Shown here one piece after another: positions 1-58,284 of a stretch of 64,000 nucleotides of DNA. Position 1 is the stretch's first letter. Each line of letters opens with the position of its first letter. Origin of the DNA: Minisyncoccota bacterium (GTDB lineage: Bacteria > Patescibacteriota > Minisyncoccia > UBA6257 > JAGOQP01); the NCBI GenBank assembly GCA_017991375.1, contig JAGOQP010000002.1:2259-66258 (forward strand). The letters run 5' to 3'. Under the pieces are notes generated by a model. That model was not told the origin of the DNA and did no database searches. It was given only the letters and a program-made list of their open reading frames with translations. The position numbers and the translations under genes were made by a program.

Positions 1-210
1 TCAAATCTTATCGCGGTCTCCGAAAAATCGGGACATATTGAAAATATTATGCAAACGCTTGCCGATTTTTATAAATCAGAAATAGAATCATCGGTCAAAT
101 CCCTTGTGTCATTTATAGAACCTGTCCTCCTTCTTTTTATCGGTATTATTGTGGGAACAATTGCGTTGGCGATCATTATTCCCGTATACCAACTCACGAG
201 TACGTTTTAG
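1..210 (+). CDS. pilC: GspF/PilC-type pilus platform protein, C-terminal fragment (5' end outside window)
   Basis: Frame-1 translation ...FIEPVLLLFIGIIVGTIALAIIIPVYQLTSTF* matches the conserved C-terminal TM segment of GspF/PilC; stop TAG 208-210. Confidence 0.7.
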   Translation, partial: SNLIAVSEKSGHIENIMQTLADFYKSEIESSVKSLVSFIEPVLLLFIGIIVGTIALAIIIPVYQLTSTF

Positions 211-245
211 ACAAACTAACCAGAGACAACTAACAACTAACAGCA

Positions 246-1346
246 ATGAAAAATTTCTTTTCACTTTCAATGTTTCACATTCGTCGTCACGGTTTCACTC
301 TCGTTGAGTTGCTCGTGGTTATTGGCATCATCGCGATTATTGCTGGGTTTTCATATATGAGCTTAAGTGGATTTAAAAACAGAAGAAGTTTTGACCTTGA
401 CGCGGAAAAAATCGTAGAGGGGATACGCAATGCTCAAAATAGCTCCATTGTACAAGAACAAGGCGCCGCGTGGCAGATTGTGTTTGCCAACACGATAACC
501 ACCAATGTTTCATTTGAAATTAGAAAAGCGACCGCTACAAGCTCAATCACCGGGAAAACAACGCTTTCAAGTGGTTCGTTTTCAAATCTATCATCGGGAG
601 CGACCACATCTATCGTTTTCGAGGCACGTACCGGAAAACCTTCTGATGGAGTAGCGCATACACTTGTGTTTAAAAGAAAAAACGCAACCGATACATATAT
701 TATCACGGTAAGTGTTCAAGGGGTTATCACGAGGCGTTTTGAAACGGGGCTTGCAATGGGATTACTCTTTGATGAGGCGACAAGCACGCTCTCATATGAT
801 ATTTCTGGCACGGGAAATAACGCAACGCTATATAATACTACGTGGTCCACGACAGGATGTCGTAGTGGATCGTGTTTATATTTTAACGGAAACCCGTCAG
901 CGTATGCGTCTTTTGGGACCACCCAATTCGGTTCAACGCAAGGGACTATATCATTATGGGTAAAAGCAACGGGCGTTTCCACCGATTCTTTCTTGTTTTA
1001 TCACCAAAACGCAGGGGAAAATCTAAATATCAGACCAAACAATCCTTCGCGTTTTATTGTGGATATTGATGACGGATCTTATTATGCGTATGCGGCTCCG
1101 TATGAGGGGGAGTGGGTTCATTATGTTTTAACTTACGATAATCAAGCTGGCATCTCTTTCTTTTACAGAAATGGAGCGGCGGTTTCCTCGAGTACGTATG
1201 CGACCAACGGGACTCTATTATTTGGTTCCACAGCGCGTATCGGTTATAGCACGGGATCGGGTTTTTATGGATTGATTGATGACGTGCGCGTGTACGACCA
1301 CGCGCTCACCCAGCAAGAAGTTCAATCGCTCTACGCTAGTTATTAA
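246..1346 (+). CDS. prepilin-type pseudopilin with C-terminal LamG/concanavalin-like domain
   Basis: N-terminus MKNFFSLSMFHIRRHG|FTLVELLVVIGIIAI (G/FTLVE prepilin cleavage-methylation motif, E at +5); C-terminus ...LIDDVRVYDHALTQQEVQSLY is typical of LamG domains. Confidence 0.8.
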   Translation: MKNFFSLSMFHIRRHGFTLVELLVVIGIIAIIAGFSYMSLSGFKNRRSFDLDAEKIVEGIRNAQNSSIVQEQGAAWQIVFANTITTNVSFEIRKATATSSITGKTTLSSGSFSNLSSGATTSIVFEARTGKPSDGVAHTLVFKRKNATDTYIITVSVQGVITRRFETGLAMGLLFDEATSTLSYDISGTGNNATLYNTTWSTTGCRSGSCLYFNGNPSAYASFGTTQFGSTQGTISLWVKATGVSTDSFLFYHQNAGENLNIRPNNPSRFIVDIDDGSYYAYAAPYEGEWVHYVLTYDNQAGISFFYRNGAAVSSSTYATNGTLLFGSTARIGYSTGSGFYGLIDDVRVYDHALTQQEVQSLYASY

Positions 1347-1351
1347 TACAT

Positions 1352-3091
1352 ATGCTCTTTATATCAAACTTAGTACAGCTCATGCGTTCATACGCTACAC
1401 GCATGCCATTTCATAACTTATCACAGGCAAAAAACGAAGAGCCATATACCATATACCATAAGCTATACGCTATTTCTACTGCCCGTTCGGGGCAACTCCT
1501 TGCCGAGGTGCTGATTGCGATTGCGGTAGGGAGCATTCTTATTATTGGGTCAACGATCGCGATGGTGTCTGTCGTAAGAACGAATAATCAAAATAGACAA
1601 AATCAAGCAGGTAGTGCGATGGCACACGATATGTTAGAGAGAATCCGGGCGCTGAGTGTCCGTGACTGGAACACGCTTAGCTCGCTTTCGCGTGGATCAA
1701 ACAATGCATACGCCGTGGCGCCAGGAACGTCAACCGCTTCTATTTTTTTGGGTAAGGAGGGTGTCTTGCTTAACGATATAACGGCGGGACTGGTGGGGCA
1801 TTGGAAATTTGACGAGCTTTCCGGAACAACTGTGTATGATTTCTCGGGGAATCAAAATAATGGAGTTTTGGGAACTACGACGCGCGTATCTGCCACGTCA
1901 AGTTGTCCTGTTAGTTTTTGCGCGAGTTTTAATGGAACGAGTAGCTCTCTCACCGTTCCGGATAATACCACCTTGGATATTTCAGGACAGTTTACGCTTG
2001 CCGCTTGGGTACGGTGGGATCAGTTTAAAAATCATGGCATTATTGCTCAAAAAGGAACGGGTGCCGACGCGAATGTTATGAATTATGGAATTGTTTCGTC
2101 TGTAGGAAATCAAATAACCGGAAGTATTAGCACCGCGACTACCAGCAATTCAGTTTCGTATACATCAGCAAGCATTCTTTCAACAAACACATGGCACCAC
2201 ATCGCCTTCGTTGCCGATGGATCAACGCTTACGTTATACGTTAATGGTGTTTCTCGGGCAACTCAGCAACAACTTATCCAACCACGGGCGAATGCTAATC
2301 CATTTCTCATATCGTCTCCATATTCATCGTACTCTTTTGATGGCGCCATCGACGACGTTCGTTTATATAATAGAGCGCTGAACACGAATGAAATTAACGC
2401 TCTTGCAAAAAATCTCGTGCTTATGAGAATGTTTTTTGTGGATTCAGTAGCGCGAGATCAATGCGGAAGTGGGAATGTTACTACAACGGCGACAACTACA
2501 TGCGTAACATGGAACGGCATTGCGTCTGATCCGTCAACGCTCAATATAACAACCCAAGTTCTATCAAATAGCAGCACGTTTTCAATTGTAGTTCCCACAT
2601 TAATAACAAGAACGCAAAACAATTCGGCGATTCAAAAAGGATGGTTGGAAGAATCAATTATTGGGCCTGTTTCCGATTTTGAGCTTGGTTTTGCAAGTTC
2701 GTCAAATATTGCGCTGGTGGGGCAGTCAATTCGTCCCCTGACATCTTCAACAACAGGGATCGTGTACTCAAGCATATTAGACACGCGGGGTACGTTAGGA
2801 GTGAATTTTAATACGTTGTGGTGGCACGGAACCTTACCTACTAATGCTCATGTTCGTTTCCAAATCGCATCATCAAATTCATCAAGCACATCAGGGTGGA
2901 ATTTCATTGGTCCTGGAGGAACATCTTTGATAACTGATTATTATGAACCATCCGATTCGGGAAAGCCGACTAAAATAAATATTCAATACCACAATAACCA
3001 TCGCTTTTTTAGATACAAACTTTTCTTAGTTCCTGATTCCGCTGGGCTAGGGCCGATTGTTAACGACGCGGTTATTAATTGGAGTTTCTAA
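1352..3091 (+). CDS. large pseudopilin-like protein with LamG domain (start codon uncertain)
   Basis: ...ARSG|QLLAEVLIAIAVGSILIIG (E at +5) TM helix; internal LamG-like block LVGHWKFDELSGTTVYDFSGNQNNG...DDVRLYNRALNTNEINAL; leader is unusually long, so the start may be internal (M at 1403). Confidence 0.7.
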   Translation: MLFISNLVQLMRSYATRMPFHNLSQAKNEEPYTIYHKLYAISTARSGQLLAEVLIAIAVGSILIIGSTIAMVSVVRTNNQNRQNQAGSAMAHDMLERIRALSVRDWNTLSSLSRGSNNAYAVAPGTSTASIFLGKEGVLLNDITAGLVGHWKFDELSGTTVYDFSGNQNNGVLGTTTRVSATSSCPVSFCASFNGTSSSLTVPDNTTLDISGQFTLAAWVRWDQFKNHGIIAQKGTGADANVMNYGIVSSVGNQITGSISTATTSNSVSYTSASILSTNTWHHIAFVADGSTLTLYVNGVSRATQQQLIQPRANANPFLISSPYSSYSFDGAIDDVRLYNRALNTNEINALAKNLVLMRMFFVDSVARDQCGSGNVTTTATTTCVTWNGIASDPSTLNITTQVLSNSSTFSIVVPTLITRTQNNSAIQKGWLEESIIGPVSDFELGFASSSNIALVGQSIRPLTSSTTGIVYSSILDTRGTLGVNFNTLWWHGTLPTNAHVRFQIASSNSSSTSGWNFIGPGGTSLITDYYEPSDSGKPTKINIQYHNNHRFFRYKLFLVPDSAGLGPIVNDAVINWSF

Positions 3092-3095
3092 TGAT

Positions 3096-3665
3096 ATGAC
3101 GATTAGACGAGGGCTATATATTGGCATAGTCGGCCTTTGCGCGTTGTGTGCCTTAGGGCTCTTTTTTCATTATCGTGAACATGCTTTGAATACAACACAA
3201 AACGTCGGCAATATAACATGTGTTACACGAGAGTATGAAGCGTTGGTGCAGGGCGTGTCGCTTGAAGAGATTGTGAAACCGGGATCGTTAGTGCGTGTTC
3301 AAGAGGGGTTTTATAACTGTAACCCAGTAAGACGAGGGGACGTGGTCGCGTATCATTACGCGGGAAACGCCGCGCCGGTTATTAAGATAGTATATGGTAT
3401 TCCCGGGGATGCGTGGCGCGTTTCTATGTCCGCAAGCGGAACTACAATCATTCTTAATGAACAAAACGTGACTACCCCTGCGGGTAAGACGTTCTTGATG
3501 ACATCAAAGCGGGCACAGATGCTTTCGATGTATGCGCGGGATTATCCAATTATTCCCGCCGACACCTATTTGCTTCTTGGTACCGATCCATGGGGGACGC
3601 TTGATAGCTCTCGCTTTGGACTGGTCCATAAAAATGATCTTATTGGGCGTGCGCGCGCGCAGTAG
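3096..3665 (+). CDS. S26 signal peptidase I-like protein
   Basis: N-terminal TM helix; RGDVVAYHY...VIKIVYGIPGD and LLLGTDPWGTLDSSRFGLVHKNDLIGRA resemble SPase I boxes D and E; start placed at M14 of the printed ORF to avoid overlap with the upstream gene. Confidence 0.5.
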   Translation: MTIRRGLYIGIVGLCALCALGLFFHYREHALNTTQNVGNITCVTREYEALVQGVSLEEIVKPGSLVRVQEGFYNCNPVRRGDVVAYHYAGNAAPVIKIVYGIPGDAWRVSMSASGTTIILNEQNVTTPAGKTFLMTSKRAQMLSMYARDYPIIPADTYLLLGTDPWGTLDSSRFGLVHKNDLIGRARAQ

Positions 3666-3720
3666 TGTTGTTGGGCGCCCATTAAAAAGGTATACTCAGT
3701 ACAAAGGGAAATAAAAACAT

Positions 3721-4164
3721 ATGACACAGACACGTGGTGGCGCTATTGCTCTTTCAGTCATTCTTATCGTTGGTGTTATCGTTGTGGAAATAGCGGCCGC
3801 GAGTATGCTTATTTCTTATTTCGCGAATCAAGAAGGATTCGGGACGCGTCTAGCAATAATAGCGGCAACATCTGCTCGAGTAGGAGTAGATGAAGCATTG
3901 CGGCGGATCGTGCGAGGTGATTATGCGTCAGCAGGAGGATCTTTCTCGGTATCTTTGGCAGGAAATGCATCCGCTGGCGTTACTGTCTGTAAGGACTTAA
4001 AAACAGTAACATCAGCGTGTGATACGGCTAACGGGGGCTTGTACGAGATTACTTCTATTGGATCAGCGGTGACTAAAAAAAGCAAATTACGAGCGTATGT
4101 TGTGGTTGATACCTTAACAGGACGAATGACTATTGAGTCAAGTCAATATAGCGCGGTAGAATAG
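3721..4164 (+). CDS. small membrane-anchored protein (possible minor pilin/pilus accessory)
   Basis: 147-aa ORF with a single N-terminal TM helix (AIALSVILIVGVIVVEIAAASMLI) inside the pilus gene cluster; no recognised motif. Confidence 0.45.
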   Translation: MTQTRGGAIALSVILIVGVIVVEIAAASMLISYFANQEGFGTRLAIIAATSARVGVDEALRRIVRGDYASAGGSFSVSLAGNASAGVTVCKDLKTVTSACDTANGGLYEITSIGSAVTKKSKLRAYVVVDTLTGRMTIESSQYSAVE

Positions 4165-4189
4165 AAAAAGAGGTGAAAATTTTTTAGCG

Positions 4190-5731
4190 TTGTGTATGAA
4201 AAAAATAATCAATGTCGCACGTACTATTATTTTGCGCGCCGCGCGCGTTATTAAACCCGAGCTAGAAATTGGCGGGCTTGATATAAGCGATAGTAGAATT
4301 TCGTTTATTTCTATCAACCCAGAAACCGACGCCGTAACGCAAGCATCGTGCAAATTACCCACAGGCGCGGTGCAAGATGGTGTTATCAAAGACAGTGGCG
4401 CGTTTCAGAAAGCTCTTAAAGAGCTTCACGCGCGTATTACTTATTCAGAGAATAAGAAAATACCCGTTATTGTTTCCATATCTGATACGAATGTATTCAC
4501 GCAAGCATTTACCCTTCCTCAGTTTCAAGGATCGGCGCTAAAAGATGCGGTGGAACTTAATATGCGTGCCGCGTCTCCCATTGAGTATGAGCATACGTAT
4601 CATGATTGGGAGCAAATACAAAAAAGAAACGATCAAGATAGCACAGGCGAAACTGAATTACTCTCATCGTTCATCAAAAAGGATATTATTGATGTATTAT
4701 GCCAAAATCTTAAAAACACCTCATTTATACCAGTGGCCATTGAGCAACGGGCCGTATCTTTCGCTCGTTGTATTAACGAGTTAGTGGACGATGTCACGTT
4801 TGATATTCCCTACTGTATATTGCATATAGGGGGCGACGGGGCGAGTTTCGCTATTATCAAATGGGGGAGGGTATATTTTGCAAATAACGTATCATGGGAC
4901 GCGGTAGTCCATACCGCGCATGCTCGTGAAATCTCTTTTGCTGAATTCACTTCATCAATTGTTCAAGGGGTGCAACGCATTGTAAATTACTACACGAGTC
5001 GCTTCCCCGATGATCTATCGGCGCTCTTTTTTGTCGCGCCAGGCCTTGAGCAAAACATTATTCCCATCTTAAGCAGCCATATTCATCTTCCTATCAAACC
5101 AGTGGCGCTTAAAAAATATATTGTTGAGGGGGATTCTATTATTGCCTTAGGTGGAGCGTTGCGCGGTCTTGTTTCAAGATCAAAAGATGCTCAGATCAGT
5201 TTAACACCAGAGGGAACCGAGGCAGAATTCTTTCATTCTCAGGTAACAACTTTTATTACTATGTGGCGCGCTATTGCGGTGGTGGTGTGTGGAGTTATTC
5301 TTGTGGCGGCATTTAGTTCGTTCTTGTTCCTTCGGACGGTCGTTTATAAAAACGCTCAAGGTCTTTCTGTTCTCTCGGTTGGACATACGGCGCAAGAGCT
5401 TGGGGCAAAAAAACGGGAAGCAGAAGTTTTTAACGCGCACATTGATCGCGCGCTTAGGGCAAAAGCACAACAAACAAGGTGGGCAGAAGTCGTTGATGCG
5501 TTATATAAAAAAGCGGGGACAGAAATTGTTATTGAACGCTTATATGCGCAATCGCCTGGTCTCCCGGTACTCGTTAATGCGCGTGCTATCAATGAGCAAG
5601 CAATGATAACGTTTAAAAACGAACTTTCACAGATTGCGCGGCTTAAAAATATAGATTTACCGGTAACAAGCGTCATTAGAGCGGATAACGGAGAAATGAC
5701 ATTCCGTCTATCGTTTACTTTGGATAAATAA
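4190..5731 (+). CDS. PilM-like (actin-fold) + PilN-like fusion protein
   Basis: N-terminal ~350 aa pilM-like (GLDISDSRISFISINPETDAVTQASCKLPTGAVQDGVIKD); a TM helix (ITMWRAIAVVVCGVILVAAFSSFLFL) follows, then a ~150-aa PilN-like periplasmic tail. Confidence 0.65.
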   Translation: MCMKKIINVARTIILRAARVIKPELEIGGLDISDSRISFISINPETDAVTQASCKLPTGAVQDGVIKDSGAFQKALKELHARITYSENKKIPVIVSISDTNVFTQAFTLPQFQGSALKDAVELNMRAASPIEYEHTYHDWEQIQKRNDQDSTGETELLSSFIKKDIIDVLCQNLKNTSFIPVAIEQRAVSFARCINELVDDVTFDIPYCILHIGGDGASFAIIKWGRVYFANNVSWDAVVHTAHAREISFAEFTSSIVQGVQRIVNYYTSRFPDDLSALFFVAPGLEQNIIPILSSHIHLPIKPVALKKYIVEGDSIIALGGALRGLVSRSKDAQISLTPEGTEAEFFHSQVTTFITMWRAIAVVVCGVILVAAFSSFLFLRTVVYKNAQGLSVLSVGHTAQELGAKKREAEVFNAHIDRALRAKAQQTRWAEVVDALYKKAGTEIVIERLYAQSPGLPVLVNARAINEQAMITFKNELSQIARLKNIDLPVTSVIRADNGEMTFRLSFTLDK

Positions 5732-5746
5732 CTACGAAATACGAAT
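5732..5746. repeat. left inverted repeat flanking GxxExxY gene (CTACGAAATACGAAT)
   Basis: Perfect 15-bp inverse complement of 6298-6312; flanking TACGAATATACGAA blocks extend the imperfect IR to ~45 bp. Confidence 0.8.
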
Positions 5747-5819
5747 GGTGCAATACGAATATACGAACTGTATTATAGCGAATTTTTCACAGCAGGCTAG
5801 TATACAAAGTTAAACTTAA

Positions 5820-6224
5820 ATGATGTTAAAAACTCCCATTCGAGACGATTTACTCTACCCAAATGAAACGTATCGGATAATGGGCGTGCTATTTGATGTA
5901 TGGAACCAAATAGGGTGGGGACATAGAGAACGAGTCTATCAGAACGCTTGCGCGGTGGCTTTTAAGAAGGCATTGATTCCATTCAAGAAAGAAGTGCATA
6001 TCCCTGTATTTTATAGAGGAGAAAAAATCTCTCATTCATTGAGCGATTTTCTTTTGTTTGATTGTATTATATTGGAGATAAAGGTTAGATCATTTTTTAG
6101 ATTGGGGGATATAAGACAGTGTTATAGGTACTTAAAGGAAAGTAATATGAAACTTGCAATTATCGCGCATTTTACAAAAGATGGCGTAAAATTTAAGCGA
6201 ATTGTAAATATTCCTAATAACTAG
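5820..6224 (+). CDS. GxxExxY family protein (PD-(D/E)xK-like)
   Basis: Signature WGHRERVYQNA (G-x-x-E-x-x-Y) near the N-terminus; 134 aa; flanked by inverted repeats. Confidence 0.8.
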   Translation: MMLKTPIRDDLLYPNETYRIMGVLFDVWNQIGWGHRERVYQNACAVAFKKALIPFKKEVHIPVFYRGEKISHSLSDFLLFDCIILEIKVRSFFRLGDIRQCYRYLKESNMKLAIIAHFTKDGVKFKRIVNIPNN

Positions 6225-6297
6225 TACAATTTTCTTGTTCGTCTGTTTGTTCATTAATAGTTCATATTGTCTAGGATTCGTATATTCGTACTATCCA

Positions 6298-6312
6298 ATT
6301 CGTATTTCGTAG
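6298..6312. repeat. right inverted repeat flanking GxxExxY gene (ATTCGTATTTCGTAG)
   Basis: Reverse complement of 5732-5746. Confidence 0.8.
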
Positions 6313-6321
6313 TATTGTTCT

Positions 6322-9024
6322 ATGTATAACCACAAAAAAATAGAAAAAAAATGGAGCACGCGGTGGAAAAAAGAGCGGTTATTTGAGTTGCCCGATAAAT
6401 ACATTCCCACCAAAAGAAGTAAGGCAATGTATATTTTAGATATGTTTCCTTATCCATCGGGCGCGGGGCTTCATGTGGGGCATCCTATGGGGTATATCGC
6501 TTCAGATGTGCTCTCTCGTTACTATCGTGCCCAGGGCAAAACCGTGCTTCACCCTATGGGATGGGACGCGTTTGGGTTGCCGGCGGAAAATTATGCAATC
6601 AAAAATAAGATTCATCCCAAGGTAGTGGTAAAGCAAAACGTTGCTCGATTTAAAAAACAAATTGATCGCATCGGATTTTCATACGATTGGTCGCGCGAAA
6701 TAAACACCACCGACCCCCAGTACTACAAATGGACGCAATGGATTTTTCTTAAATTATTTGAACATGGACTAGCGTATAAAAAAGAGACGCCAGTTAACTG
6801 GTGCCCATCATGCAAGACGGTATTGGCGGACGAGGAGGTTGAAAATGGGGCCTGCGAAAGATGCCATAGTGCTGTTGAAAGAAAAAATATAGAACAGTGG
6901 ATGCTTAAAATTACTCGATATGCTGATCGTTTGTTAAATGATCTAGACACTATAGAATGGCCAGAAAAAGTAAAAACCATGCAACGTAACTGGATTGGGA
7001 AATCCACCGGCGCGTTAATCGATTTCGGATTTCGGATTTCGGATTTTGGAGGTCAAGGATCAAAGATTAAAGATCACCGATTTAATATCCCTATTTTCAC
7101 CACCCGTCCCGATACGCTCTTTGGCGCGACACATCTTGTTATTGCTCCCGAACATCAACTTATCAAAGAGCTTGGCGATACTATCAAAAACAATAAAGAG
7201 GTTGCCGCGTATGTGCGTGCGGCGGTCAACAAATCAGATCAAGAACGTATTACTGAAGGAAAAAATAAGACGGGGGTGCGTTTGGAAGGAATAACGGCAA
7301 TCAATCCAGCGAACAAAAAGGAGATTCCAATCTTTGTTGCTGATTATGTGTTGCCACATTATGGTACCGGAGCGATTATGGCGGTGCCTGCCCACGATAG
7401 TCGCGATTTTGATTTTGCTAAAAAATATAATCTTCCTATTGTGCCAGTTGTTTGTGATTATTATGAATATAGAAGTAAGAACGCAAACAATCAACTTCAA
7501 ATAAACAGAATATCTGTAAACGTAGTAGGAAGCTCTCCTAAAATAACCAATTTATCTGAAATTGCAAAGTTTAGAGAACAGGCATATAAAAATCTAAAAA
7601 AAGAGAATATCTGTTTTCGTGAGGGTATACTTTTTGATTCTGGAAAATATTCAGGATATCACTCAACTCTAGCGGCAAAGGAGATAGTAAAGAAAGTAAA
7701 AGGAACTTTTAAAACAACATACCGCCTGCGTGATTGGATATTCTCTCGCCAGCGATATTGGGGGGAACCATTCCCAGTCGTGTTTTGCCAACACTGCAAA
7801 AAAGAAATAGAGTCCTTCCTCGCTAAACATCATCTCTCTCCCGACGCTTTTATTTCTTCCACTTCTCACTTACCACTTACCACTACCCGCTATTCTCTCG
7901 GCGAACTCCTCAACCCCGGTTGGGTTCCACTTAAAGAAAAAGATCTTCCACTTACATTGCCAAAAGTAAAAAAATATGAACCCACAGGCACACTCAATTC
8001 CCCGCTGGCCGCAATATCTTCATGGGTAAACACCACATGTCCCCGGTGTGGCGGTAAGGCACAGCGCGAAACAAACACTATGCCGCAATGGGCTGGTTCG
8101 TGCTGGTATTATTTGCGTTATATAGATCCGCGTAATAAAAAAGAATTAGTCAACACGAAAAAAGCAAAATCATTTTTGCCTGTTGATATATACATCGGAG
8201 GTGTTGAGCACGCTGTCCTCCATTTGCTCTATGCTCGTTTTTGGCATAAGTTTCTTTACGATATTAAGGCAGTGCCAACCGCCGAACCATTTTATCAACT
8301 CAAAAACCAAGGTCTTATTCTCGGTCCCGATGGAGAGAAGATGTCAAAGTCAAGAGGAAATGTTATCAATCCCGATGATATTATTGATCGTTACGGCGCC
8401 GACGCGCTTCGCTTGTATGAAATGTTTATGGGGCCATTTGAGGATGCAAAACCATGGAGCACAGATGGTATTGTGGGACTTGCGCGATTTTTGGAACGCG
8501 TATGGAATATATACAAGAAAAAACCAAAAAAGAACGCGTCCACTGTTCGCAATAAAAAATTGGAACGCGTTATGCACTACACGATAAAAAAGGTGGGGGA
8601 GGATATAAAGAATTTACACTTTAATACAGCGGTGAGCGCGCTCATGATCGCGAGTAAGGAAATTGATGCTACGCACGACGTTCCCCAGTGGGTATATGAT
8701 TCGTTTATTGTGTTGTGTGCTCCTTTTGCTCCGTTTATCGCCGAAGAAATCTGGCGTGTTATGCTTGGGCATAAGCACTCGATTACCAAAGAAAAATGGC
8801 CAACATTTAATGCCCGCATGCTTGTTCGCGATGAAGTGGTAATCGCGGTACAGATTAATGGCAAGACAAAAGGAACGGTTACTGTTGATCAGGGATCAGA
8901 AAAAGAAACAGTTATTGGTGTTCTTAAGAAAGATAAAAAACTGACGACCCATATTGAAAATAAAATCATACTCAAAACGATATTTGTTCCTGATAGAGTT
9001 ATTAATCTTGTTATAAAACAATGA
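6322..9024 (+). CDS. leuS: leucyl-tRNA synthetase
   Basis: HIGH motif (PYPSGAGLHVGHPMGY), KMSKS motif (KMSKSRGN), 900 aa. Confidence 0.95.
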   Translation: MYNHKKIEKKWSTRWKKERLFELPDKYIPTKRSKAMYILDMFPYPSGAGLHVGHPMGYIASDVLSRYYRAQGKTVLHPMGWDAFGLPAENYAIKNKIHPKVVVKQNVARFKKQIDRIGFSYDWSREINTTDPQYYKWTQWIFLKLFEHGLAYKKETPVNWCPSCKTVLADEEVENGACERCHSAVERKNIEQWMLKITRYADRLLNDLDTIEWPEKVKTMQRNWIGKSTGALIDFGFRISDFGGQGSKIKDHRFNIPIFTTRPDTLFGATHLVIAPEHQLIKELGDTIKNNKEVAAYVRAAVNKSDQERITEGKNKTGVRLEGITAINPANKKEIPIFVADYVLPHYGTGAIMAVPAHDSRDFDFAKKYNLPIVPVVCDYYEYRSKNANNQLQINRISVNVVGSSPKITNLSEIAKFREQAYKNLKKENICFREGILFDSGKYSGYHSTLAAKEIVKKVKGTFKTTYRLRDWIFSRQRYWGEPFPVVFCQHCKKEIESFLAKHHLSPDAFISSTSHLPLTTTRYSLGELLNPGWVPLKEKDLPLTLPKVKKYEPTGTLNSPLAAISSWVNTTCPRCGGKAQRETNTMPQWAGSCWYYLRYIDPRNKKELVNTKKAKSFLPVDIYIGGVEHAVLHLLYARFWHKFLYDIKAVPTAEPFYQLKNQGLILGPDGEKMSKSRGNVINPDDIIDRYGADALRLYEMFMGPFEDAKPWSTDGIVGLARFLERVWNIYKKKPKKNASTVRNKKLERVMHYTIKKVGEDIKNLHFNTAVSALMIASKEIDATHDVPQWVYDSFIVLCAPFAPFIAEEIWRVMLGHKHSITKEKWPTFNARMLVRDEVVIAVQINGKTKGTVTVDQGSEKETVIGVLKKDKKLTTHIENKIILKTIFVPDRVINLVIKQ
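7021..7048 (+). repeat. in-frame heptanucleotide microsatellite (GATTTCG)x3 plus one imperfect unit inside leuS
   Basis: gatttcg gatttcg gatttcg gattttg encodes DFGFRISDFG in a variable loop just upstream of the TTRPDTLFGAT editing-domain motif. Confidence 0.85.
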
Positions 9025-11129: not shown

Positions 11130-11298
11130 TTCAACGTTCAACTTTCCACACCCCGTCCACTCTTCGGCTTGCCCTGTTCTCACTCGTTTAACTTTCCACT
11201 TTCCACTCGTTCGTACCCCCGAGAGGAATATCCTTCGCCTCTCGTTTCGCCTTGCTTTCGTTCGTTTAACTTTCCACTTTTCACTTTCCACTCGTTCG
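11130..11298 (-). repeat. tRNA-Arg(CCU) 3'-flank element: GGAAAGTTAAACGA-type repeats plus a duplicated tRNA 3' end
   Basis: Bottom strand reads tRNA - CGAACGAGTGGAAAGTGAAAAGTGGAAAGTTAAACGAA - CGAAACGAGAGGCGAAGGA - TATTCCTCTCGGGGGTA (copy of the tRNA 3' 17 nt, top-strand 11215-11231) - further GGAAAGTTAAACGA repeats; same architecture as at 26205-26436. Confidence 0.7.
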
Positions 11299-11371
11299 TA
11301 CCCCCGAGAGGAATCGAACCTCTATCTATCCCTTAGGACGGGACTGTTCTAATCCGTTGAACTACGAGGGT
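11299..11371 (-). tRNA. tRNA-Arg (anticodon CCU)
   Basis: Reverse-complement: acceptor ACCCTCG/CGGGGGT, D-arm GTTC-AACGGATTA-GAAC, anticodon stem GTCCC/GGGAT with loop GTCCTAA, T-arm AGAGG-TTCGATT-CCTCT; 73 nt. Confidence 0.75.
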
Positions 11372-13013
11372 TTATAAGCAAAAAACACGTTGAAAACAGC
11401 CCTTGGGTATTGTATGCTAAGTGCGCATAAAAATTCAAATACCATGGGCCTATGGTATACCGGTAGAACGCCTCCATGGCATGGAGGAGAACGGGGTTCA
11501 ATTCCCCGTAGGTCCACCAAAGTTGATTAGTCGCCTCGCTCGGCGCTTCGCGCCTCGCTTCGGCAGGCATTTCCGCAAGGAAATGCCAAGGGTTTTTGAA
11601 ATCAATCGTCAATTTTCCCGCCGCAAGGCGGCGGTTCGAGCCGATGGTTTTGAGAAAATTTTTCATTTCCGAAAAATTTTCAGACAAAATGAGATTTTTG
11701 GCTTGGTTGGCCTCTAAAATCCAATTTCGGGTGAGTTCGAGCCAATGATTTCCTTTTCGCTCAAAATCCGATAATTTTTCCTCAATATCTTTCTTTTCCG
11801 CCATTAGTTTGTTTTTCTTTTCCTGAAATTCCGCCAGTTCAAAACTGCCTTCAAGATAGCCGTCCATTAAGCGGTCTATTTTTGTTTTTATGGCGGAAAG
11901 TTCGGTTTTAAGATTTTGAGCGAAAAGGTCTGATGTTTGGCGGTTTTCGCTTTCCCATTCTTTCACTTTGCAAAGATATTTTTCCCGCCAAACATCGGGC
12001 AAAGAAACTTTTTGACAAATCTCTTTTACTTGCTCGGTCAAAACTTCTTCCCGCAAAAAGCGAGCTTGAGAACAATTTTGCGTTTTGCTTTTGTGGGTGC
12101 AACGATAATAAACAAATTTTAGTCCGCTTTTCTTGATGTGCCGTTCGGCTGTTATGGCATATCCGCACTCGCCACAAACCGCAAAATTGAGAAATTGAAA
12201 GTTTTTCGGTCCTCGCTTTTTGCGGGGCTTGCCGTTTGTGATTAACGCTTCTTGTATTTGGTCAAAAAGTTTCTTTGAAATCATTGGCTTATGCGATCCT
12301 TGATGAATTTCGCCACGATAGCGAAAATGTCCGTAATAGAATGGATTAGTCAAAATTTTCTGAATGGTGGAAAGATGAGGCAGTTTCCCGTCTTTGCCAA
12401 CCAAGCCAAGAGAAAACATTTTGCCTTGAATAGCGGTAAGCGTGTAATTGCCAGTGGCAAAAGCCCGCAAAACTTCTTTCACTTTGTTAAAAGTTTTTCT
12501 ATCGGGTTCTATAGTTCGCAGACGAGGTTCGTTGAAATATCCGAGCGGGGCTTTTGCCGATAGCTCACCGCGTCTTATTTTCTGCCTGATTCCGCGCAAA
12601 ATGTTTTCTCTTAAATTGTCGGTGTAATACTTTGCTTGTCCGAAGGCGACAGACAACATAAATTTTCCCTGCGGTGTCGCTTCAAACCAAAATGTGGGGA
12701 ATTTTAGCGATTCAATCTTTTTTGTGTCCACAAGGTAAATTACTTTTCCGCCGTCTATTGAATTTCTAGCCAATCTATCGGGATTCCACGCTAAAATTCC
12801 CGAAGCGTTGCCTTTTTCAATTTCCGAAAGCATAAAATTAAAAACTTCTCGGCCCGGCTCTTTGGCTGTTTTGCTTTCGTAAAATTCTTTGACGACAAAA
12901 AGATTGTTTTGTTTGGCAAACTCGCGAAGTTCCGTGAGCTGGGCCTCAATAGACAAAACTTGTCTTTCCTCGTCCTCGCTTGATTTGCGACAATAGATAA
13001 AGTATTTTATCAT
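11349..13013 (-). CDS. large serine recombinase (resolvase/invertase N-terminal domain + recombinase domain + zinc ribbon + coiled coil)
   Basis: N-terminus MIKYFIYCRKSSEDEERQVLSIEAQ...AWNPDRLARN (serine-recombinase catalytic domain); CGECGYAITAERH...YYRCTHK zinc ribbon. The ORF has no stop until 11349, so it reads through IR-A, antisense tRNA-Ala and into tRNA-Arg; the true C-terminus is probably upstream (~455 aa to the IR boundary). Confidence 0.85.
   Translation of the reverse strand: MIKYFIYCRKSSEDEERQVLSIEAQLTELREFAKQNNLFVVKEFYESKTAKEPGREVFNFMLSEIEKGNASGILAWNPDRLARNSIDGGKVIYLVDTKKIESLKFPTFWFEATPQGKFMLSVAFGQAKYYTDNLRENILRGIRQKIRRGELSAKAPLGYFNEPRLRTIEPDRKTFNKVKEVLRAFATGNYTLTAIQGKMFSLGLVGKDGKLPHLSTIQKILTNPFYYGHFRYRGEIHQGSHKPMISKKLFDQIQEALITNGKPRKKRGPKNFQFLNFAVCGECGYAITAERHIKKSGLKFVYYRCTHKSKTQNCSQARFLREEVLTEQVKEICQKVSLPDVWREKYLCKVKEWESENRQTSDLFAQNLKTELSAIKTKIDRLMDGYLEGSFELAEFQEKKNKLMAEKKDIEEKLSDFERKGNHWLELTRNWILEANQAKNLILSENFSEMKNFLKTIGSNRRLAAGKLTIDFKNPWHFLAEMPAEARREAPSEATNQLWWTYGELNPVLLHAMEAFYRYTIGPWYLNFYAHLAYNTQGLFSTCFLLINPRSSTD
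11446..11519 (+). tRNA. tRNA-Ala (anticodon GGC), CCA encoded
   Basis: Acceptor GGGCCTA/TAGGTCC with the G3:U70 Ala identity pair; anticodon stem CCTCC/GGAGG with loop ATGGCAT; T-arm CGGGG-TTCAATT-CCCCG; ends ACCA. Confidence 0.8.
11514..11637. repeat. IR-A left copy (124 bp)
   Basis: Reverse complement of 13156-13279 with 2-3 mismatches; contains hairpins GGCATTTCC-gcaa-GGAAATGCC and CCGCCGC-aa-GGCGGCGG; outer end overlaps the tRNA-Ala CCACCA. Confidence 0.9.
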
Positions 13014-17009: not shown

Positions 17010-20000
17010 GTGTGGTATACTTATAGTGTGATAGTGAACGATGTAAATAACGCACATAAGGTTAAGCGGAGTGCTGTTCGTATCCTTGCGTCACTAGGCA
17101 TAGGCATGGTGATTTTTGGTGCGCTTGGTGGAGCGGCATATGTGTTTGCTATTCCTCCGCTCTCGCCATACGATCCCAATGAAACACTGGATCCAACTTG
17201 TGCCCCCGGTGATATTAATTGTACCGTTGTAACACCAGTTGCTGGGACAGGAGCTCTTGGGCAAATCGGATTTTTTAGCGGGACATCAACGATTGCAAGT
17301 GATTCAAAATTTACCTTTAGTTCGTCAACGGGTGATTTGGGGCTTGTGTCGGATTCGGCCCAGTTTAAACTAGGGGCGCTCTCTGATGTGGGGATCACGC
17401 GTAGTGTAGCGGGAACGTTAAAAATCACCGATGGATCAACTGGTCTTGGATCAATACACATTGGAGGGATGACCTTTGGCACTGCGAGCGGATTACTCAA
17501 AGCAACTGCAGGTGTAGTGAGCACCGCGACATCAAGCGATGCTGATCTAATTCTTCCTACGCAAACAGGAAATAGCGGAAAATATCTTACCACCAACGGA
17601 GCAACGTCTTCGTGGGCGACAGTCCCCAGTTCACAATGGACTACATCGGGGAGTGGTATTTATTACGACAGTGGAAACGTAGGAATTGGAACGGTTAGTC
17701 CGTTGTCAAAACTGCACGTGTCTGGTGGAGCGCGTGTTGATGGAGATACTGGCAACGCGACGTTAGCTGGGTATCTCTCAAGCTCGACCCTCAATGTTTA
17801 CAACGGAAATACAACAGATAATAATTACGCGTCGATCGGATTTTCTTCGTATTTTGAACGAACGGGATTAATTAATATAAATGGAGCTCCAGCGGCTGGG
17901 ATGGGGGCACAATTCTTAAGTCACGTGTCGGCAAGTAGTTTTAACTTTCCAACAGATCTTTATTTTTGGACAGGATATAGCGCTATCGGAGAAGGACTTG
18001 GAATTCCAGCGAGTGAGAAAATGAGAATCACTGCCGCGGGTAATGTCGGTATTGGTACATCAACCCCCCGGGGTCTTTTGGAGGTAGCAAGTAGCACTTC
18101 AAAAACAACTTTGTTTACCGTGTTACCGAATGGATATGTAGGAATAGGGACGGCAACTCCAAGTTATGGATTACAAGTTACTGGGTCATCTTATCTTGCA
18201 GGGAACGCTTTTACGGCAAATGGTGGGTATTTTGGTTTTGGTGGAAGCAATTCTTCTATTTATGGATCATCAGCCGTTGGAAGTAACTACATGGCATTCT
18301 ACACATCAAGTACGGAAAGAATGAGGATTAATCATACAGGCAATGTCCTTATCGGCACCTCAACCGCATCGGGCGTGTTTGTCGTAGCAACAAGCACCGC
18401 AACAAGTCCATTGCTTAGTGTTCTTAATAACGGGAGTGTTTATATGGGCGTTTCTACGCAGGGTTTTGGATTGTTGAATATGAATTCTGATGGAACAGTA
18501 ACGTTAAGAAACACTGCTGGTGCCAATGGTATAACATTTACTGGTGGCACTGCGTCAAGTATTGTGTTTAATTCCGACTCAACCGTGAACGCACAAGTCA
18601 TAAAAACAAGTTCAGCTAACTCATTAACCTTTGGGACAAATAACACCGAACGAATGAGGATTGATAGCACCGGCAACGTCCTTATTGCCACCACCACAAC
18701 ATCGACAGCGCTTCTTACTCTTGGTGCCGCAACAACCACAACAATAACCGATCTTCTTATCAATCCAGCGGCAAAAAACGCGGGGAATTTAATTGACGCC
18801 CAAGTAGGAGGGGTGAGTAAGTTTAGTGTAAGTAATACGGGGAGCGTTATTGCTTCGGGTGCGCTTACGGTTGGTAGTTTTTCAATCAATGCCAGAAAAT
18901 GGTATTCAGATGGCGTATATTTTGCGGCTGGTTCTGCAAATCAATTAATGTGGTCATCCACTATTGATGCTATAGGCACTAAAGACCTTGGTCTTGCTCG
19001 TTCCTCAGCTGGGACATTAAAAATTACTGATGGTTCAACAGGATTTGGAGATTTGTTGGCTGGGAAAGTATCTTTAACGGCAACTGATTCTTCTGCGGCA
19101 ACTGATTTGCTTGTTAACCCAACGACAAAGACAAGTGGAAATTTGATTGACGCCCAGGTAGGAGGGGTGAGTAAGTTTAGTGTAACGAACTTAGGAGCAT
19201 TAACTACGGGAAGTAGTATTACTTCAAGTGGAAATATAACAGCCAAATCTTCAATGAGAACTACTGGTGATTACCTACAACCATCAGGAGCTTTTATTGC
19301 TTGGTCTAGTACAGCTAGTACATTTGCGACTCCAGATATCGGCCTCTCTCGCTACAACGCAGGAGTGCTGGCGGTAGGCAATGGAACTGCGAGTGATTAC
19401 TCAGGAAGTATGCTCGTGGGTCGTATTGGCATAGCTACGACCACTACGTCAACAGCTATTCTCACTGTCGGTGCCGCTACAACCACAACCATAACTGACT
19501 TACTCATCAATCCATCAGCAAAGGATGGGGGGAAATTAATTGACGCCCAGGTAGGAGGAGTGAGTAAGTTTAGTGTAAGTAATAGAGGTTTACTGACAAC
19601 GGCGAGCGCAATAGTATCTGGAACTCTCTATAACTACAACATTGGGGGTGGTGGTAACACAACGCTTAATTTACAAAATGGGAGCATGGTTGCTAGTAGT
19701 ACCACTGCCGTAAGTGCAGCGGGCGGAACGTTCAGTCAGACATCTGGTTCTAATGTGGCATTTAGAATTAATCCTACCTACAACCAATCTTCAGGCACAG
19801 CCGCTAACACCGACCTGCTTATCAACCGCACCGAAACAGCAGTAGGGAGTGGGACGCAAAGATTAATTGACGCCCAGGTAGGAGGAGTGAGTAAGTTTAA
19901 CGTTACCAATCTCGGTCGAGGATATTTTGCTGACGGGATTAGTATTGCTACATCGTCGACTTCATATGGATTAATTGTTGGTGACGGGTCAACACAAAAG

Positions 20001-58110: not shown

Positions 58111-58239
58111 AAAGCACTCAACTACAATATATTTGAGTATTTCAAAACGGTGCATATATGTACCGTGTACGTTACAATCATGTGTATTTTGAATGGCATA
58201 TTATCTCGTGGACACGTTAGGCAGTTTTACGGGATAGTG

Positions 58240-58268
58240 TTGACTTCCATCTATTTTTATGCTAGAAT
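58240..58268 (+). promoter_or_regulatory. sigma70-type promoter TTGACT-N17-TAGAAT
   Basis: ttgacttccatctatttttatgctagaat, 16 nt upstream of ATG 58285. Confidence 0.5.
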
Positions 58269-58284
58269 ATACACACGGTTTGTT

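What the first reader, a model, noticed from the sequence alone, without database searches (positions are those of the whole stretch)
1..5731. Type IV pilus-like cluster with two giant LamG-domain pseudopilins, an S26 signal-peptidase-like gene and a PilM-PilN fusion
Pseudopilins of 366 and 579 aa, each carrying a LamG/concanavalin-like C-terminal domain, are much larger than canonical minor pilins. This suggests an adhesive or enzymatic tip. An SPase I-like protein lies inside the pilus locus and a fused PilM-PilN is present. The arrangement is consistent with episymbiont attachment or DNA uptake machinery.
Basis: partly seen in the sequence, partly recalled or inferred. Interest (0 to 1): 0.5.

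Follow-up and report, generated by a model that had tools for sequence, protein, structure and literature searches.

The report
CPR type IV pilus operon with lectin pilins
This is the second half of an ordinary type IV pilus operon from a tiny Pacebacteria-group bacterium; its pilus-tip proteins carry sugar-binding-type domains, an arrangement already known from related bacteria, and the signal peptidase gene lying inside it is an occasional passenger, not a fixed part of the machine.

Summary
Window 1-5731 holds the 3' end of pilC, a 366-aa GspH-like pilin with a C-terminal LamG domain, and a 579-aa PilV-like pilin with a LamG domain. A 98%-identical strain shows the upstream half: response regulator, major pilin, PilB, PilC.

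Thirteen related Paceibacteria, Wolfebacteria and Parcubacteria loci keep the same order, always ending next to leuS where that side was read. Both LamG pilins, the small pilin and the fusion are core. The S26 gene is in only 3 of the 14 loci, and its subfamily elsewhere mostly flanks Sec-secreted fibre-like proteins.

In the 579-aa pilin LamG is an insertion, not a C-terminal domain. It sits in a widespread family of about 335-aa CPR pilins that share a conserved C-terminal module.

Pilins combining N_methyl with PF13385 are a published, frequent modular-pilin architecture. Lectin-type minor pilins have been shown to act in adhesion in Streptococcus sanguinis and in Saccharibacteria TM7x. PilD and PilT were not found in the 64 kb, so their presence in the genome is untested.

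Verdict: a new member of a known kind, of low to moderate interest.

The parts
1..210 (+). 3' end of pilC (platform protein, PilC/GspF family); the last 69 residues of a 402-aa protein
   Evidence: It matches Pfam T2SSF at E 5e-12 and aligns to the last ~65 profile positions of TIGR02120 GspF and NF052607 PilC. The full 402-aa gene is seen in L002 and L007.
246..1346 (+). Minor pilin 1 (366 aa). It has a class III signal peptide (leader MKNFFSLSMFHIRRHG | FTLVELL, Glu at +5), a GspH/FimU-like pilin part and a C-terminal LamG domain (residues 216-360, nt 891-1325).
   Evidence: It matches N_methyl at E 7.5e-8 and Laminin_G_3 at E 5.8e-22. TIGR01708 gspH matches residues 15-78 at E 8.8e-9, below that model's cut-off. 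Of 13 positional orthologues, 11 carry both N_methyl and LamG.
1352..3091 (+). Minor pilin 2 (579 aa). It has a PilV-like N-terminus (..ARSG | QLLAEVLIAIAVG, Glu at +5), a LamG domain inserted at about residues 135-350 (Pfam match 194-349, nt 1931-2398) and a conserved C-terminal module at residues 351-579 (nt 2402-3088).
   Evidence: It matches Laminin_G_3 at E 7.7e-29. TIGR02523 PilV matches residues 47-121 at E 5.6e-5, below its cut-off. Q48, L49, L50 and E52 are invariant in 13 orthologues, and all 13 have LamG. BLASTP against the 335-aa pilin P0142 aligns residues 46-134 and 351-578 on either side of the LamG block. The C-terminal module is found in 601 clusters, always at the protein's end. 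In the AF2 model LamG is confident and the C-terminal part is not. The closest folds to LamG are carbohydrate- or receptor-binding jelly rolls.
3096..3665 (+). Signal peptidase I (S26, bacterial Ser/Lys type, 189 aa) with an N-terminal membrane anchor. It is a lineage-specific insertion in the operon.
   Evidence: It matches Peptidase_S26 at E 1e-14 and TIGR02227 at 60 bits against a cut-off of 47. Ser55 aligns with the catalytic Ser of S. aureus SpsB, in the column that is Ala in the 4wvg mutant, and Lys97 with the SpsB Lys. K97, D170 and S171 are invariant in the subfamily. A GGAG lies 12 nt before the ATG, inside the end of the preceding gene. The gene is in the cluster only in the window, L007 and L013.
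3721..4164 (+). Small pilin-like protein (147 aa). It has a short basic leader ending in an invariant Gly (MTQTRG | GAIALSVILIVGVIVVEIA) and no Glu at +5, so it is a candidate PilX/GspK-type or S. sanguinis PilA-type tip or priming subunit.
   Evidence: A positional orthologue lies directly upstream of PilMN in all 14 syntenic loci, and G7 is invariant. No family reaches significance: only 1 of 14 members touches PilX_N, at E 0.033, and a PDB profile search finds nothing. The assignment is an inference from the N-terminal pattern and the position.
4196..5731 (+). PilM-PilN fusion (511 aa). It has a cytoplasmic actin-like PilM domain (about residues 20-330), a conserved ISL(T/A)PEG segment, a membrane helix (about 357-379), a coiled coil and a ferredoxin-like beta-beta-alpha-beta-beta domain (444-509).
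   Evidence: TIGR01175 matches at E 8e-11 and PF11104 at 33.3 bits against a cut-off of 27 on residues 1-337. The AF2 model has pLDDT 81.7. The best Foldseek hits are P. aeruginosa PilM 5eou (E 2e-19), Thermus PilM 2ych (TM 0.74) and M. xanthus PilM 3jc8. The fusion aligns over its whole length in 10 clusters of about 500 aa. No PilN Pfam hit was obtained.

Best explanation
Window 1-5731 is the promoter-distal half of a type IVa-like pilus operon of a Pacebacteria-group (CPR/Patescibacteria) bacterium. The full order is: response regulator, major pilin, PilB, PilC, minor pilin 1, minor pilin 2, [S26], small pilin without Glu5, PilM-PilN.

Proposed mechanism. Except for the presence of the parts, these steps are inferred:
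- The three minor pilins have their leaders removed by a prepilin peptidase encoded elsewhere in the genome.
- They assemble in the membrane into a priming complex that ends up at the pilus tip.
- The small subunit lacking Glu5 is the first or capping subunit.
- The two LamG jelly-roll modules project outward as lectin-type adhesins, probably for glycans on a host cell or a surface.
- PilB and PilC polymerise the 189-aa major pilin underneath this complex.
- The single-chain PilM-PilN protein links the cytoplasmic ATPase/platform to the outer face of the membrane, as GspL does in type II secretion.

The S26 gene encodes an active bacterial-type signal peptidase I. In this sub-lineage it has landed in the variable slot between minor pilin 2 and the small pilin. 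It most likely processes ordinary Sec signal peptides and is not part of the pilus machine. A plausible substrate is the 1316-aa GNVGIGT-repeat surface protein at 17010-20960.
For: -
- The upstream half of the operon was read from a 98%-identical strain.
- The same gene order is found in 13 further loci, including a complete 562-kb Parcubacteria genome.
- LamG is present in 13 of 13 pilin-2 orthologues and 11 of 13 pilin-1 orthologues.
- The small pilin and PilMN are present in all loci.
- The PilM fold is supported.
- The LamG model is closest to carbohydrate- or receptor-binding domains: AbnA domain 4 (TM 0.77), the clostridial neurotoxin Hc N-domain and the trans-sialidase lectin domain.
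- Genes are 4-55 nt apart on one strand.
- Published precedents exist. S. sanguinis PilA/PilB/PilC form a tip complex with a ConA-like lectin pilin (PMC9934059). The TM7x lectin-like pilin PilX2 is needed for host binding (PMC11623550). N_methyl plus PF13385 is a frequent architecture (PMC8179133).
- For S26: the gene is absent from 11 of the 14 loci while everything else is kept. It passes the TIGR02227 cut-off and has Ser55/Lys97.
Against: - No prepilin peptidase (A24) and no PilT were found in the window or in the loci read, so processing and retraction are assumed, not shown.
- No PilO was found.
- The tip location, the glycan binding and the role of the 147-aa protein rest on analogy only. 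That protein matches no family.
- The C-terminal module of pilin 2 could not be modelled (pLDDT below 50), and its role is unknown.
- S26 of this subfamily recurs beside genes that belong to the same operon slot in other lineages: p145-like genes in L013, L058, L071, L078 and L090, with PilMN two genes on in L071 and L090. This leaves room for a functional link.
Confidence: 0.8

Rival explanations
1. The S26 peptidase is a dedicated maturation enzyme of a pilus-associated surface-fibre module. It would process Sec-exported fibre or adhesin proteins and/or the small membrane proteins encoded in the slot between minor pilin 2 and PilMN. These fibre proteins have an AXA cleavage site followed by W/F-T-x-P...PP-x-G-N, plus GNVGIGT repeats. 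Their export or display would be coupled to the pilus machine, as SipW-BsaA-BsaC secretion depends on type IV pilus proteins in Clostridium perfringens.
For: - In 79 metagenomic loci of this S26 subfamily, proteins with this signal lie within two genes of S26 in 13 of 73 loci. That is 13 of 215 nearby genes against 2 of 197 distant genes (Fisher p 0.007).
- The same protein type sits inside the pilus operon slot in L010 and L020.
- S26 is directly followed by the slot gene p145 in L013, L058, L071, L078 and L090, and by a small pilin-like gene in the window, L006 and L029.
- In L071 and L090 the order is S26, p145, PilMN.
- The window holds one such fibre protein at 17010-20960.
- The precedent is PMC11580942.
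Against: - Eleven of 14 pilus operons have no S26, and those carrying fibre genes (L010, L020) have none.
- The enzyme is the ordinary Ser/Lys type that passes the housekeeping equivalog cut-off, not the SipW type.
- The cleavage sites are ordinary AXA sites that any signal peptidase I would cut.
- If each small genome has a single S26, lying next to abundant secreted-protein genes needs no special link.
- The number of S26 genes per genome was not measured.
Confidence: 0.2
2. The machine is mainly a DNA-uptake (competence) pilus or a short secretion pseudopilus, not an adhesive surface pilus.
For: - CPR bacteria are reported to be naturally competent, and type IV pili are near-universal in them (papers listed; the competence report is seen only in the listed abstract of PMC10187176, which was not read).
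- No PilT was found in the cluster or the window.
- The PilM-PilN single chain has the same layout as GspL of type II secretion (lower-ranked hits 1yf5, 1w97, 4pht).
Against: - The PilC fragment scores higher against PilC/GspF models than against ComGB.
- PilB carries the MshEN N-domain and the major pilin is 189 aa.
- PilM structures fit much better than GspL (E 2e-19 against about 1e-9).
- Two conserved lectin-type modules are what an adhesin would carry.
- No comEC or comEA was seen among the window ORFs scanned.
- The functions are not mutually exclusive.
Confidence: 0.15

Closest known systems
[quoted passage not shown]
   Same: Both are monoderm-type pili. Both have three minor pilins: one small subunit without Glu5 and two bulky modular pilins. 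At least one module is a ConA/LamG-type jelly roll. Here the N_methyl plus PF13385 architecture was confirmed.
   Different: Here both modules are LamG, with no vWA module. In pilin 2 the LamG is inserted into the pilin and is not appended through a linker. There is no detectable sequence relationship beyond the domains. Tip location and glycan binding are untested here.
Saccharibacteria TM7x minor pilins PilX1 and PilX2 (lectin-like accessory domains; PilX2 is needed for host binding; PMC11623550)
   Same: Both are CPR bacteria with type IV pilus loci in which the largest minor pilins carry jelly-roll or lectin-like domains. Episymbiont attachment is the proposed role.
   Different: The class is different (Paceibacteria/Parcubacteria rather than Saccharimonadia). 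TM7x has separate PilM, PilN and PilO, and has PilD and PilT in its locus. Here PilM and PilN are fused, and PilO, PilD and PilT were not found in the cluster.
GspL of type II secretion systems, and PilM plus PilN of type IVa pili
   Same: The layout is the same: a cytoplasmic actin-like domain, one membrane helix and an outer ferredoxin-like domain in one chain, as in GspL. The fold of the N-terminal domain is closest to PilM. A conserved ISL(T/A)PEG segment sits where PilN carries its PilM-binding INLLP motif (the motif is recalled from the PilM:PilN structures 2ych and 5eou).
   Different: There is no sequence match to the PilN or GspL families. GspL cytoplasmic domains fit worse than PilM.
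Dedicated S26 peptidases in fibre operons: Bacillus subtilis SipW (tapA-sipW-tasA) and Clostridium perfringens sipW-bsaA-bsaB-bsaC (PMC11580942)
   Same: In both cases an S26 gene is embedded among genes for surface filaments or adhesins. In C. perfringens, secretion of the operon product BsaC depends on type IV pilus proteins.
   Different: The window enzyme is the bacterial Ser/Lys type. It scores above the TIGR02227 cut-off and below the TIGR02228 cut-off (24.8 against 51.85). There are no TasA-like genes, and the gene is absent from most related pilus operons.

Membership tests
Type IV pilus / type IV filament system | Pilins with a class III signal peptide (short leader, Gly at -1, hydrophobic helix, Glu at +5) | tested here: met
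   The 366-aa protein matches N_methyl at E 7.5e-8 and TIGR02532 at 30.1 bits against a cut-off of 16.3. The 579-aa protein has G47|QLLAE with Q48, L49, L50 and E52 invariant in 13 orthologues. The major pilin MNKKG|FTLVELL lies upstream in L002.
Type IV pilus / type IV filament system | Extension ATPase (PilB/GspE family) and platform protein (PilC/GspF family) | tested here: met
   The PilC C-terminus is in window 1-210. A full PilC (T2SSF_N + T2SSF) and PilB (MshEN + T2SSE) lie directly upstream in L002, which is 98% identical to the window, and in L007.
Type IV pilus / type IV filament system | Prepilin peptidase (PilD, peptidase A24) | not testable with these tools
   None was found among the window ORFs of at least 150 aa that were scanned, nor among the called genes of loci L002, L007 and L010-L013. 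The 187-aa membrane protein next to the major pilin in relatives has no conserved Asp pair. The rest of the genome could not be read.
Type IV pilus / type IV filament system | Alignment proteins PilM, PilN and PilO | tested here: inconclusive
   PilM is met. PilN is supported only by layout and by a conserved ISLxPEG segment, with no PF05137 hit. No PilO candidate is present in the window cluster.
Type IVa pilus (retractile) | Retraction ATPase PilT | tested here: not met
   No second T2SSE-family gene was found in the cluster, in the window ORFs scanned or in the related loci. One may exist elsewhere in the genome.
Modular pilins (Raynaud et al. 2021) | [quoted passage not shown] | tested here: met
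   The 366-aa protein has N_methyl plus Laminin_G_3. The 579-aa protein has a pilin motif by alignment plus Laminin_G_3. The architecture with PF13385 is named in PMC8179133.
Signal peptidase I, bacterial type (S26A; TIGR02227) | A score above the curated cut-off, a Ser/Lys catalytic pair and an N-terminal membrane anchor | tested here: met
   The score is 60 bits against a cut-off of 47. Ser55 and Lys97 align with the SpsB catalytic residues. K97, D170 and S171 are invariant. There is a hydrophobic N-terminus.
SipW / ER-type signal peptidase (TIGR02228) | A Ser/His catalytic pair and a score above the cut-off | tested here: not met
   The score is 24.8 bits against a cut-off of 51.85. The general-base position is an invariant Lys.
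PilX / GspK-type minor pilin | A match to PilX_N (PF14341) or T2SSK, and a pilin N-terminus lacking Glu5 | tested here: inconclusive
   The N-terminal pattern without Glu5 is present and Gly7 is invariant. Only 1 of 14 orthologues touches PilX_N, at E 0.033, and a PDB profile search finds nothing.
TafC (haloarchaeal Tat-fimbriae subunit, NF052521) | A full-length match above the cut-off (410 bits) | tested here: not met
   The score is 65 bits, and the match covers residues 148-352 of the protein, mostly its LamG domain. TafC belongs to a Tat-dependent haloarchaeal filament (PMC11821415).

The most novel reading that the evidence does not exclude
In Paceibacteria the slot between minor pilin 2 and PilMN would be the home of a CPR-specific, pilus-coupled surface-fibre module. 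Its parts would be Sec-exported proteins with a conserved mature N-terminus (W/F-T-x-P-x3-P-P-x-G-N) and GNVGIGT repeats, a small 'YYAVYLxTGDLYFGKL' membrane protein, and a dedicated S26 peptidase. The window would carry a reduced version holding only the peptidase. This would be a second filament or adhesin system that relies on the type IV pilus machine, comparable to SipW/BsaA/BsaC in Clostridium perfringens.
Probability: 0.15. Interest if true: 0.55.

Novelty: new member of a known kind. Interest (0 to 1): 0.25.

Why it matters
The practical value is a cleaner parts list for the type IV pilus of Paceibacteria and Parcubacteria, a group with no cultured member studied for pili.

- The operon is conserved and always abuts leuS where that side was read.
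- Its minor-pilin set is minimal: a GspH-like LamG pilin, a PilV-like LamG pilin and a small pilin without Glu5.
- A single-chain PilM-PilN replaces separate alignment proteins.
- The two LamG modules are the obvious candidates for host or surface recognition and could be expressed for glycan arrays.

Neither the modular lectin pilins nor the fusion changes current understanding. The S26 gene is interesting only if the neighbourhood pattern seen in metagenomes reflects a dedicated fibre-processing role.

Tried and rejected
- **The 147-aa protein.** Pfam and NCBIfam scans of it alone, a Pfam scan of its 14 orthologues and a PDB profile search gave nothing significant. The PilX-like label is therefore an inference.
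- **The PilN part.** Pfam on residues 336-511 alone gave no PilN hit.
- **AlphaFold of the 579-aa pilin.** Only the LamG part was confident; the C-terminal 220 residues had pLDDT below 50. No fold claim is made for them.
- **TafC hit.** It was rejected as membership because only the region around LamG matches.
- **An S26-for-membrane-protein swap.** I asked whether S26 replaces the 187-aa membrane protein found between the major pilin and PilB in relatives. The two looked complementary in six loci. However, L015 and L018 have neither, and the membrane protein has no conserved Asp pair, so it is not an A24 peptidase.
- **Promoter and terminator scan of 1-6400.** Counts were no better than shuffled sequence.
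- **A second S26 or further class III pilins in the 64 kb.** None was found.
- **The Pam pilus preprint (10.64898/2026.03.03.709456).** It describes an unrelated donor-strand pilus and does not mention S26.


Full report
**What is in the sequence.** Six co-directional reading frames, 4-55 nt apart, fill window 1-5731.

- Bases 1-210 encode the last 69 residues of a PilC/GspF platform protein (T2SSF, E 5e-12; TIGR02120 and NF052607 profile ends).
- 246-1346 encodes a 366-aa protein with a canonical class III signal peptide, MKNFFSLSMFHIRRHG|FTLVELL. It matches N_methyl at E 7.5e-8. TIGR02532 scores 30.1 bits against a cut-off of 16.3. There is a GspH-like stretch (TIGR01708, E 8.8e-9, below its cut-off) and a C-terminal Laminin_G_3 domain at residues 216-360 (E 5.8e-22).
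- 1352-3091 encodes a 579-aa protein with the motif SG|QLLAEVLIAIAVG. It has a weak PilV match (TIGR02523, E 5.6e-5) and a strong Laminin_G_3 domain at residues 194-349 (E 7.7e-29).
- 3096-3665 encodes an S26 signal peptidase I.
- 4196-5731 encodes a 511-aa protein whose first 330 residues are PilM.

**Source and the missing upstream half.**
- The S26 protein and the PilM fusion are identical to proteins named from a 'Candidatus Pacebacteria bacterium' MAG.
- An exact-sequence look-up of the 366-aa pilin found two assemblies. L001 is identical to the window. L002 is 98% identical and extends 4.8 kb upstream.
- That upstream stretch holds a receiver-only response regulator, a 189-aa major pilin (MNKKG|FTLVELLIVIAVL), PilB (MshEN + T2SSE), a small 23S_rRNA_IVP-family gene and a 402-aa PilC.
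- No A24 prepilin peptidase and no PilT-type ATPase were seen in these loci or among the window ORFs scanned. The rest of the genome could not be read.

**Conservation.**
- Homologues of the PilM fusion were traced to their contigs and to named genomes.
- Fourteen loci were compared: the window, counted together with its 98%-identical strain L002, plus L007 and L010-L020. They include Candidatus Paceibacter, two Wolfebacteria and a complete 562-kb Parcubacteria genome.
- They share one order: response regulator, major pilin(s), PilB, PilC, pilin 1, pilin 2, a variable slot, the small pilin-like gene, the PilM fusion. In 13 of the 14 loci leuS comes next; in L015 the next gene is an HtrA-type protease gene on the opposite strand. 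That protease gene was also seen beyond leuS wherever the sequence was read that far.
- Laminin_G_3 is present in 13 of 13 pilin-2 orthologues and 11 of 13 pilin-1 orthologues.
- The small pilin-like protein and the fusion are in every locus.
- The two LamG pilins are therefore a fixed feature of this pilus, not a curiosity of one genome.

**Anatomy of the 579-aa pilin.**
- Its last 225 residues were searched against 1.84 billion cluster representatives. This gave 601 hits at E <= 1e-3, and in all 150 listed hits the match lay at the extreme C-terminus. Many are CPR pilins of about 335 aa with the N-terminus G|QSLVEII and no LamG.
- BLASTP against one of them, P0142, aligns window residues 46-134 with its residues 10-100, and window residues 351-578 with its residues 105-334.
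- LamG (about residues 135-350) is therefore an insertion into a widespread CPR minor pilin, not a C-terminal domain.
- In the AlphaFold model the LamG part is confident, with pLDDT mostly 70-95. The conserved C-terminal module is not (below 50), so nothing is claimed about its fold.
- The closest solved folds to the LamG part are carbohydrate- or receptor-binding jelly rolls: arabinanase AbnA domain 4 (TM 0.77, rmsd 3.2 Å), the N-terminal half of clostridial neurotoxin binding domains and the lectin-like domain of trans-sialidases.
- From the first ATG the leader would be 47 residues. This region is poorly conserved between the window and the strain L007, whose nucleotide sequence is 89% identical, whereas Met18 is conserved. 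No clear ribosome-binding site is visible. The true start is therefore uncertain.

**The 147-aa protein.**
- All 14 loci have a positional orthologue directly before the PilM fusion.
- These share a short basic leader ending in an invariant Gly, about 20 hydrophobic residues without Glu at +5, then an amphipathic helix and a small beta-rich part.
- This is the pattern of the Glu5-less subunits that start or cap minor-pilin complexes, such as GspK/PilX and S. sanguinis PilA (PMC9934059).
- No profile reaches significance, so the assignment remains an inference.

**The PilM-PilN fusion.**
- Ten clusters of about 500 aa align over the whole length.
- The AlphaFold model (pLDDT 81.7) shows an actin-like domain, a 100-residue helix that includes the membrane segment, and a beta-beta-alpha-beta-beta domain.
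- Foldseek ranks solved PilM structures first: 5eou at E 2e-19, 2ych at TM 0.74, and 3jc8. FtsA comes next, and the cytoplasmic domain of GspL lower, at about 1e-9.
- Between the PilM domain and the membrane helix lies a conserved ISL(T/A)PEG segment (I334 and S335 nearly invariant). It sits where free PilN carries its PilM-binding INLLP motif; that motif is recalled from the 2ych and 5eou work and was not tested here.
- No PilN or GspL family matches by sequence.
- The layout equals that of GspL, so a single-chain form of this module is not new in kind. No PilO candidate is present.

**The S26 peptidase.**
- It passes the curated cut-off of the bacterial signal peptidase I equivalog (60 bits against 47) and fails the SipW/archaeal model (24.8 against 51.85).
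- Aligned to S. aureus SpsB, Ser55 falls in the column that is mutated to Ala in entry 4wvg, and Lys97 falls on the SpsB lysine. K97, D170 and S171 are invariant in the subfamily. It should therefore be active.
- Its active site faces outward, so it cannot make the cytoplasmic cut of class III signal peptides. That statement rests on established knowledge of S26 and A24 topology.
- Only the window, L007 and L013 have it in the operon. The other 11 loci keep all the other genes without it.
- No second S26 gene exists in the 64 kb.
- A scan of metagenome contigs returned 79 loci of the same subfamily. Few contain recognisable pilus genes.
- The commonest neighbours are Sec-type secreted proteins. 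These have an AXA site followed by W/F-T-x-P...P-P-x-G-N, GNVGIGT repeats and a DAxTKxYVD motif. Such proteins lie within two genes of S26 in 13 of 73 loci, which is 13 of 215 nearby genes against 2 of 197 distant genes (Fisher p 0.007).
- The same kind of protein occupies the variable slot of the pilus operon in L010 and L020.
- A small slot gene, p145, directly follows S26 in L013, L058, L071, L078 and L090.
- The window has one GNVGIGT protein, at 17010-20960.
- My reading is that this is an ordinary signal peptidase that tends to sit among envelope genes and was inserted into the slot in one sub-lineage. A dedicated link to pilus-associated fibres is possible but unproven (about 0.2).

**How it most likely works.** The shown steps are that the parts are present, their order is conserved and the domains are as assigned. 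The inferred steps follow.
- A prepilin peptidase encoded elsewhere removes the leaders.
- The Glu5-less small pilin, the GspH-like pilin and the PilV-like pilin form the priming complex that becomes the tip.
- Their two LamG jelly rolls are displayed as lectin-type adhesins.
- PilB and PilC extend the filament with the 189-aa major pilin.
- PilM-PilN couples the motor to the outside of the membrane.
- This mirrors the S. sanguinis PilA/PilB/PilC model (PMC9934059) and the lectin-like TM7x minor pilins, of which PilX2 was needed for host binding (PMC11623550).
- Attachment to a host or a surface is therefore the best guess. DNA uptake is neither supported nor excluded.

**Novelty.**
- N_methyl plus PF13385 is named among the most frequent modular-pilin architectures, and several representatives of that top-15 list come from CPR bacteria (PMC8179133).
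- Lectin-type minor pilins have been studied experimentally in a CPR bacterium, with PilX2 shown to be needed for host binding.
- A single-chain PilM-PilN layout is that of GspL.
- The finding is a well-resolved new member of a known kind.
- Three points add detail: LamG is inserted into a CPR-wide pilin family, the C-terminal module is conserved but of unknown fold, and the neighbourhood pattern of the S26 subfamily could be followed up.

Noticed in passing
window 5733-6320 (gene 5820-6224): A 134-aa PDDEXK_3 nuclease-family gene lies between the PilM fusion and leuS. It is an insertion/deletion polymorphism: the 98%-identical strain L002 has 221 unrelated bases there. A 23S_rRNA_IVP four-helix gene similarly sits between pilB and pilC in L002 and L007, and between pilC and pilin 1 in L019. 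These small genes look mobile.
   Followed up: partly
window 17010-20960: A 1316-aa protein with no Pfam match, a Sec-type signal (..GGAAYVFA|IPPLSPYDP) and GNVGIGT motifs. It belongs to the same protein type that flanks the S26 subfamily in metagenomes and that sits inside the pilus operon slot in L010 and L020. It is followed by unannotated genes of 459 aa (no match), 352 aa (TPR) and 665 aa.
   Followed up: partly
loci L021-L099 (for example L023, L035, L038, L062, L064, L077, L078): A family of CPR secreted proteins has an AXA cleavage site followed by a conserved mature N-terminus, W-T-x-P-x3-P-P-x-G-N-(V/I). These proteins often carry GNVGIGT repeats and a tail-fibre-like DAxTKxYVD motif, and they are enriched next to this S26 subfamily (p 0.007).
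   Followed up: partly
window 2402-3088; proteins P0139, P0142, P0150, P0155, P0182: The C-terminal 225 residues of the 579-aa pilin form a module found in 601 protein clusters, always at the C-terminal end. Its last ~110 residues (..VKFQIASSN..GPW.Y.GPDG..YY.P....NN.RYFRYK..L....P.VDD.IINWSP) also occur alone and as three copies in P0155. There is no Pfam family for it, and its fold could not be predicted here.
   Followed up: partly
L010 629-1204; L011 2645-3163; L012 1388-1951; L014, L016, L017, L019: A conserved multi-pass membrane protein of about 190 aa lies between the major pilin and PilB in 7 related operons and is absent from the window lineage. It has an invariant LLPP motif and one invariant Glu but no conserved Asp pair, so it is not a recognisable A24 peptidase.
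   Followed up: partly
L013 8144-8581; L010 9056-9472; L014, L015, L018, L020; L058, L071, L078, L090: A small membrane protein with the motif YYAVYLxTGDLYFGKL is present in 6 of 14 pilus operons (not in the window). It directly follows the S26 gene in five loci. In L071 and L090 the order is STT3-like oligosaccharyltransferase, S26, this gene, PilM fusion.
   Followed up: no
window 11298-13013: A large serine recombinase gene (554 aa; Resolvase + Recombinase + Zn_ribbon_recom; minus strand) overlaps the tRNA-Arg(CCT) gene at 11298-11371. This may be the edge of an integrated element. ARAGORN also calls a tRNA-Ala(GGC) inside the recombinase ORF on the other strand.
   Followed up: no
window 52276-54870 and 58150-62406: Two large surface-type proteins. 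One is 864 aa, with a PQQ-like beta-propeller and a peptidoglycan-binding domain. The other is 1418 aa, with Fn3 and purple-acid-phosphatase-N-like repeats. A 189-aa protein at 35586-36155 has a Cas2-like/PaaX_M domain.
   Followed up: no
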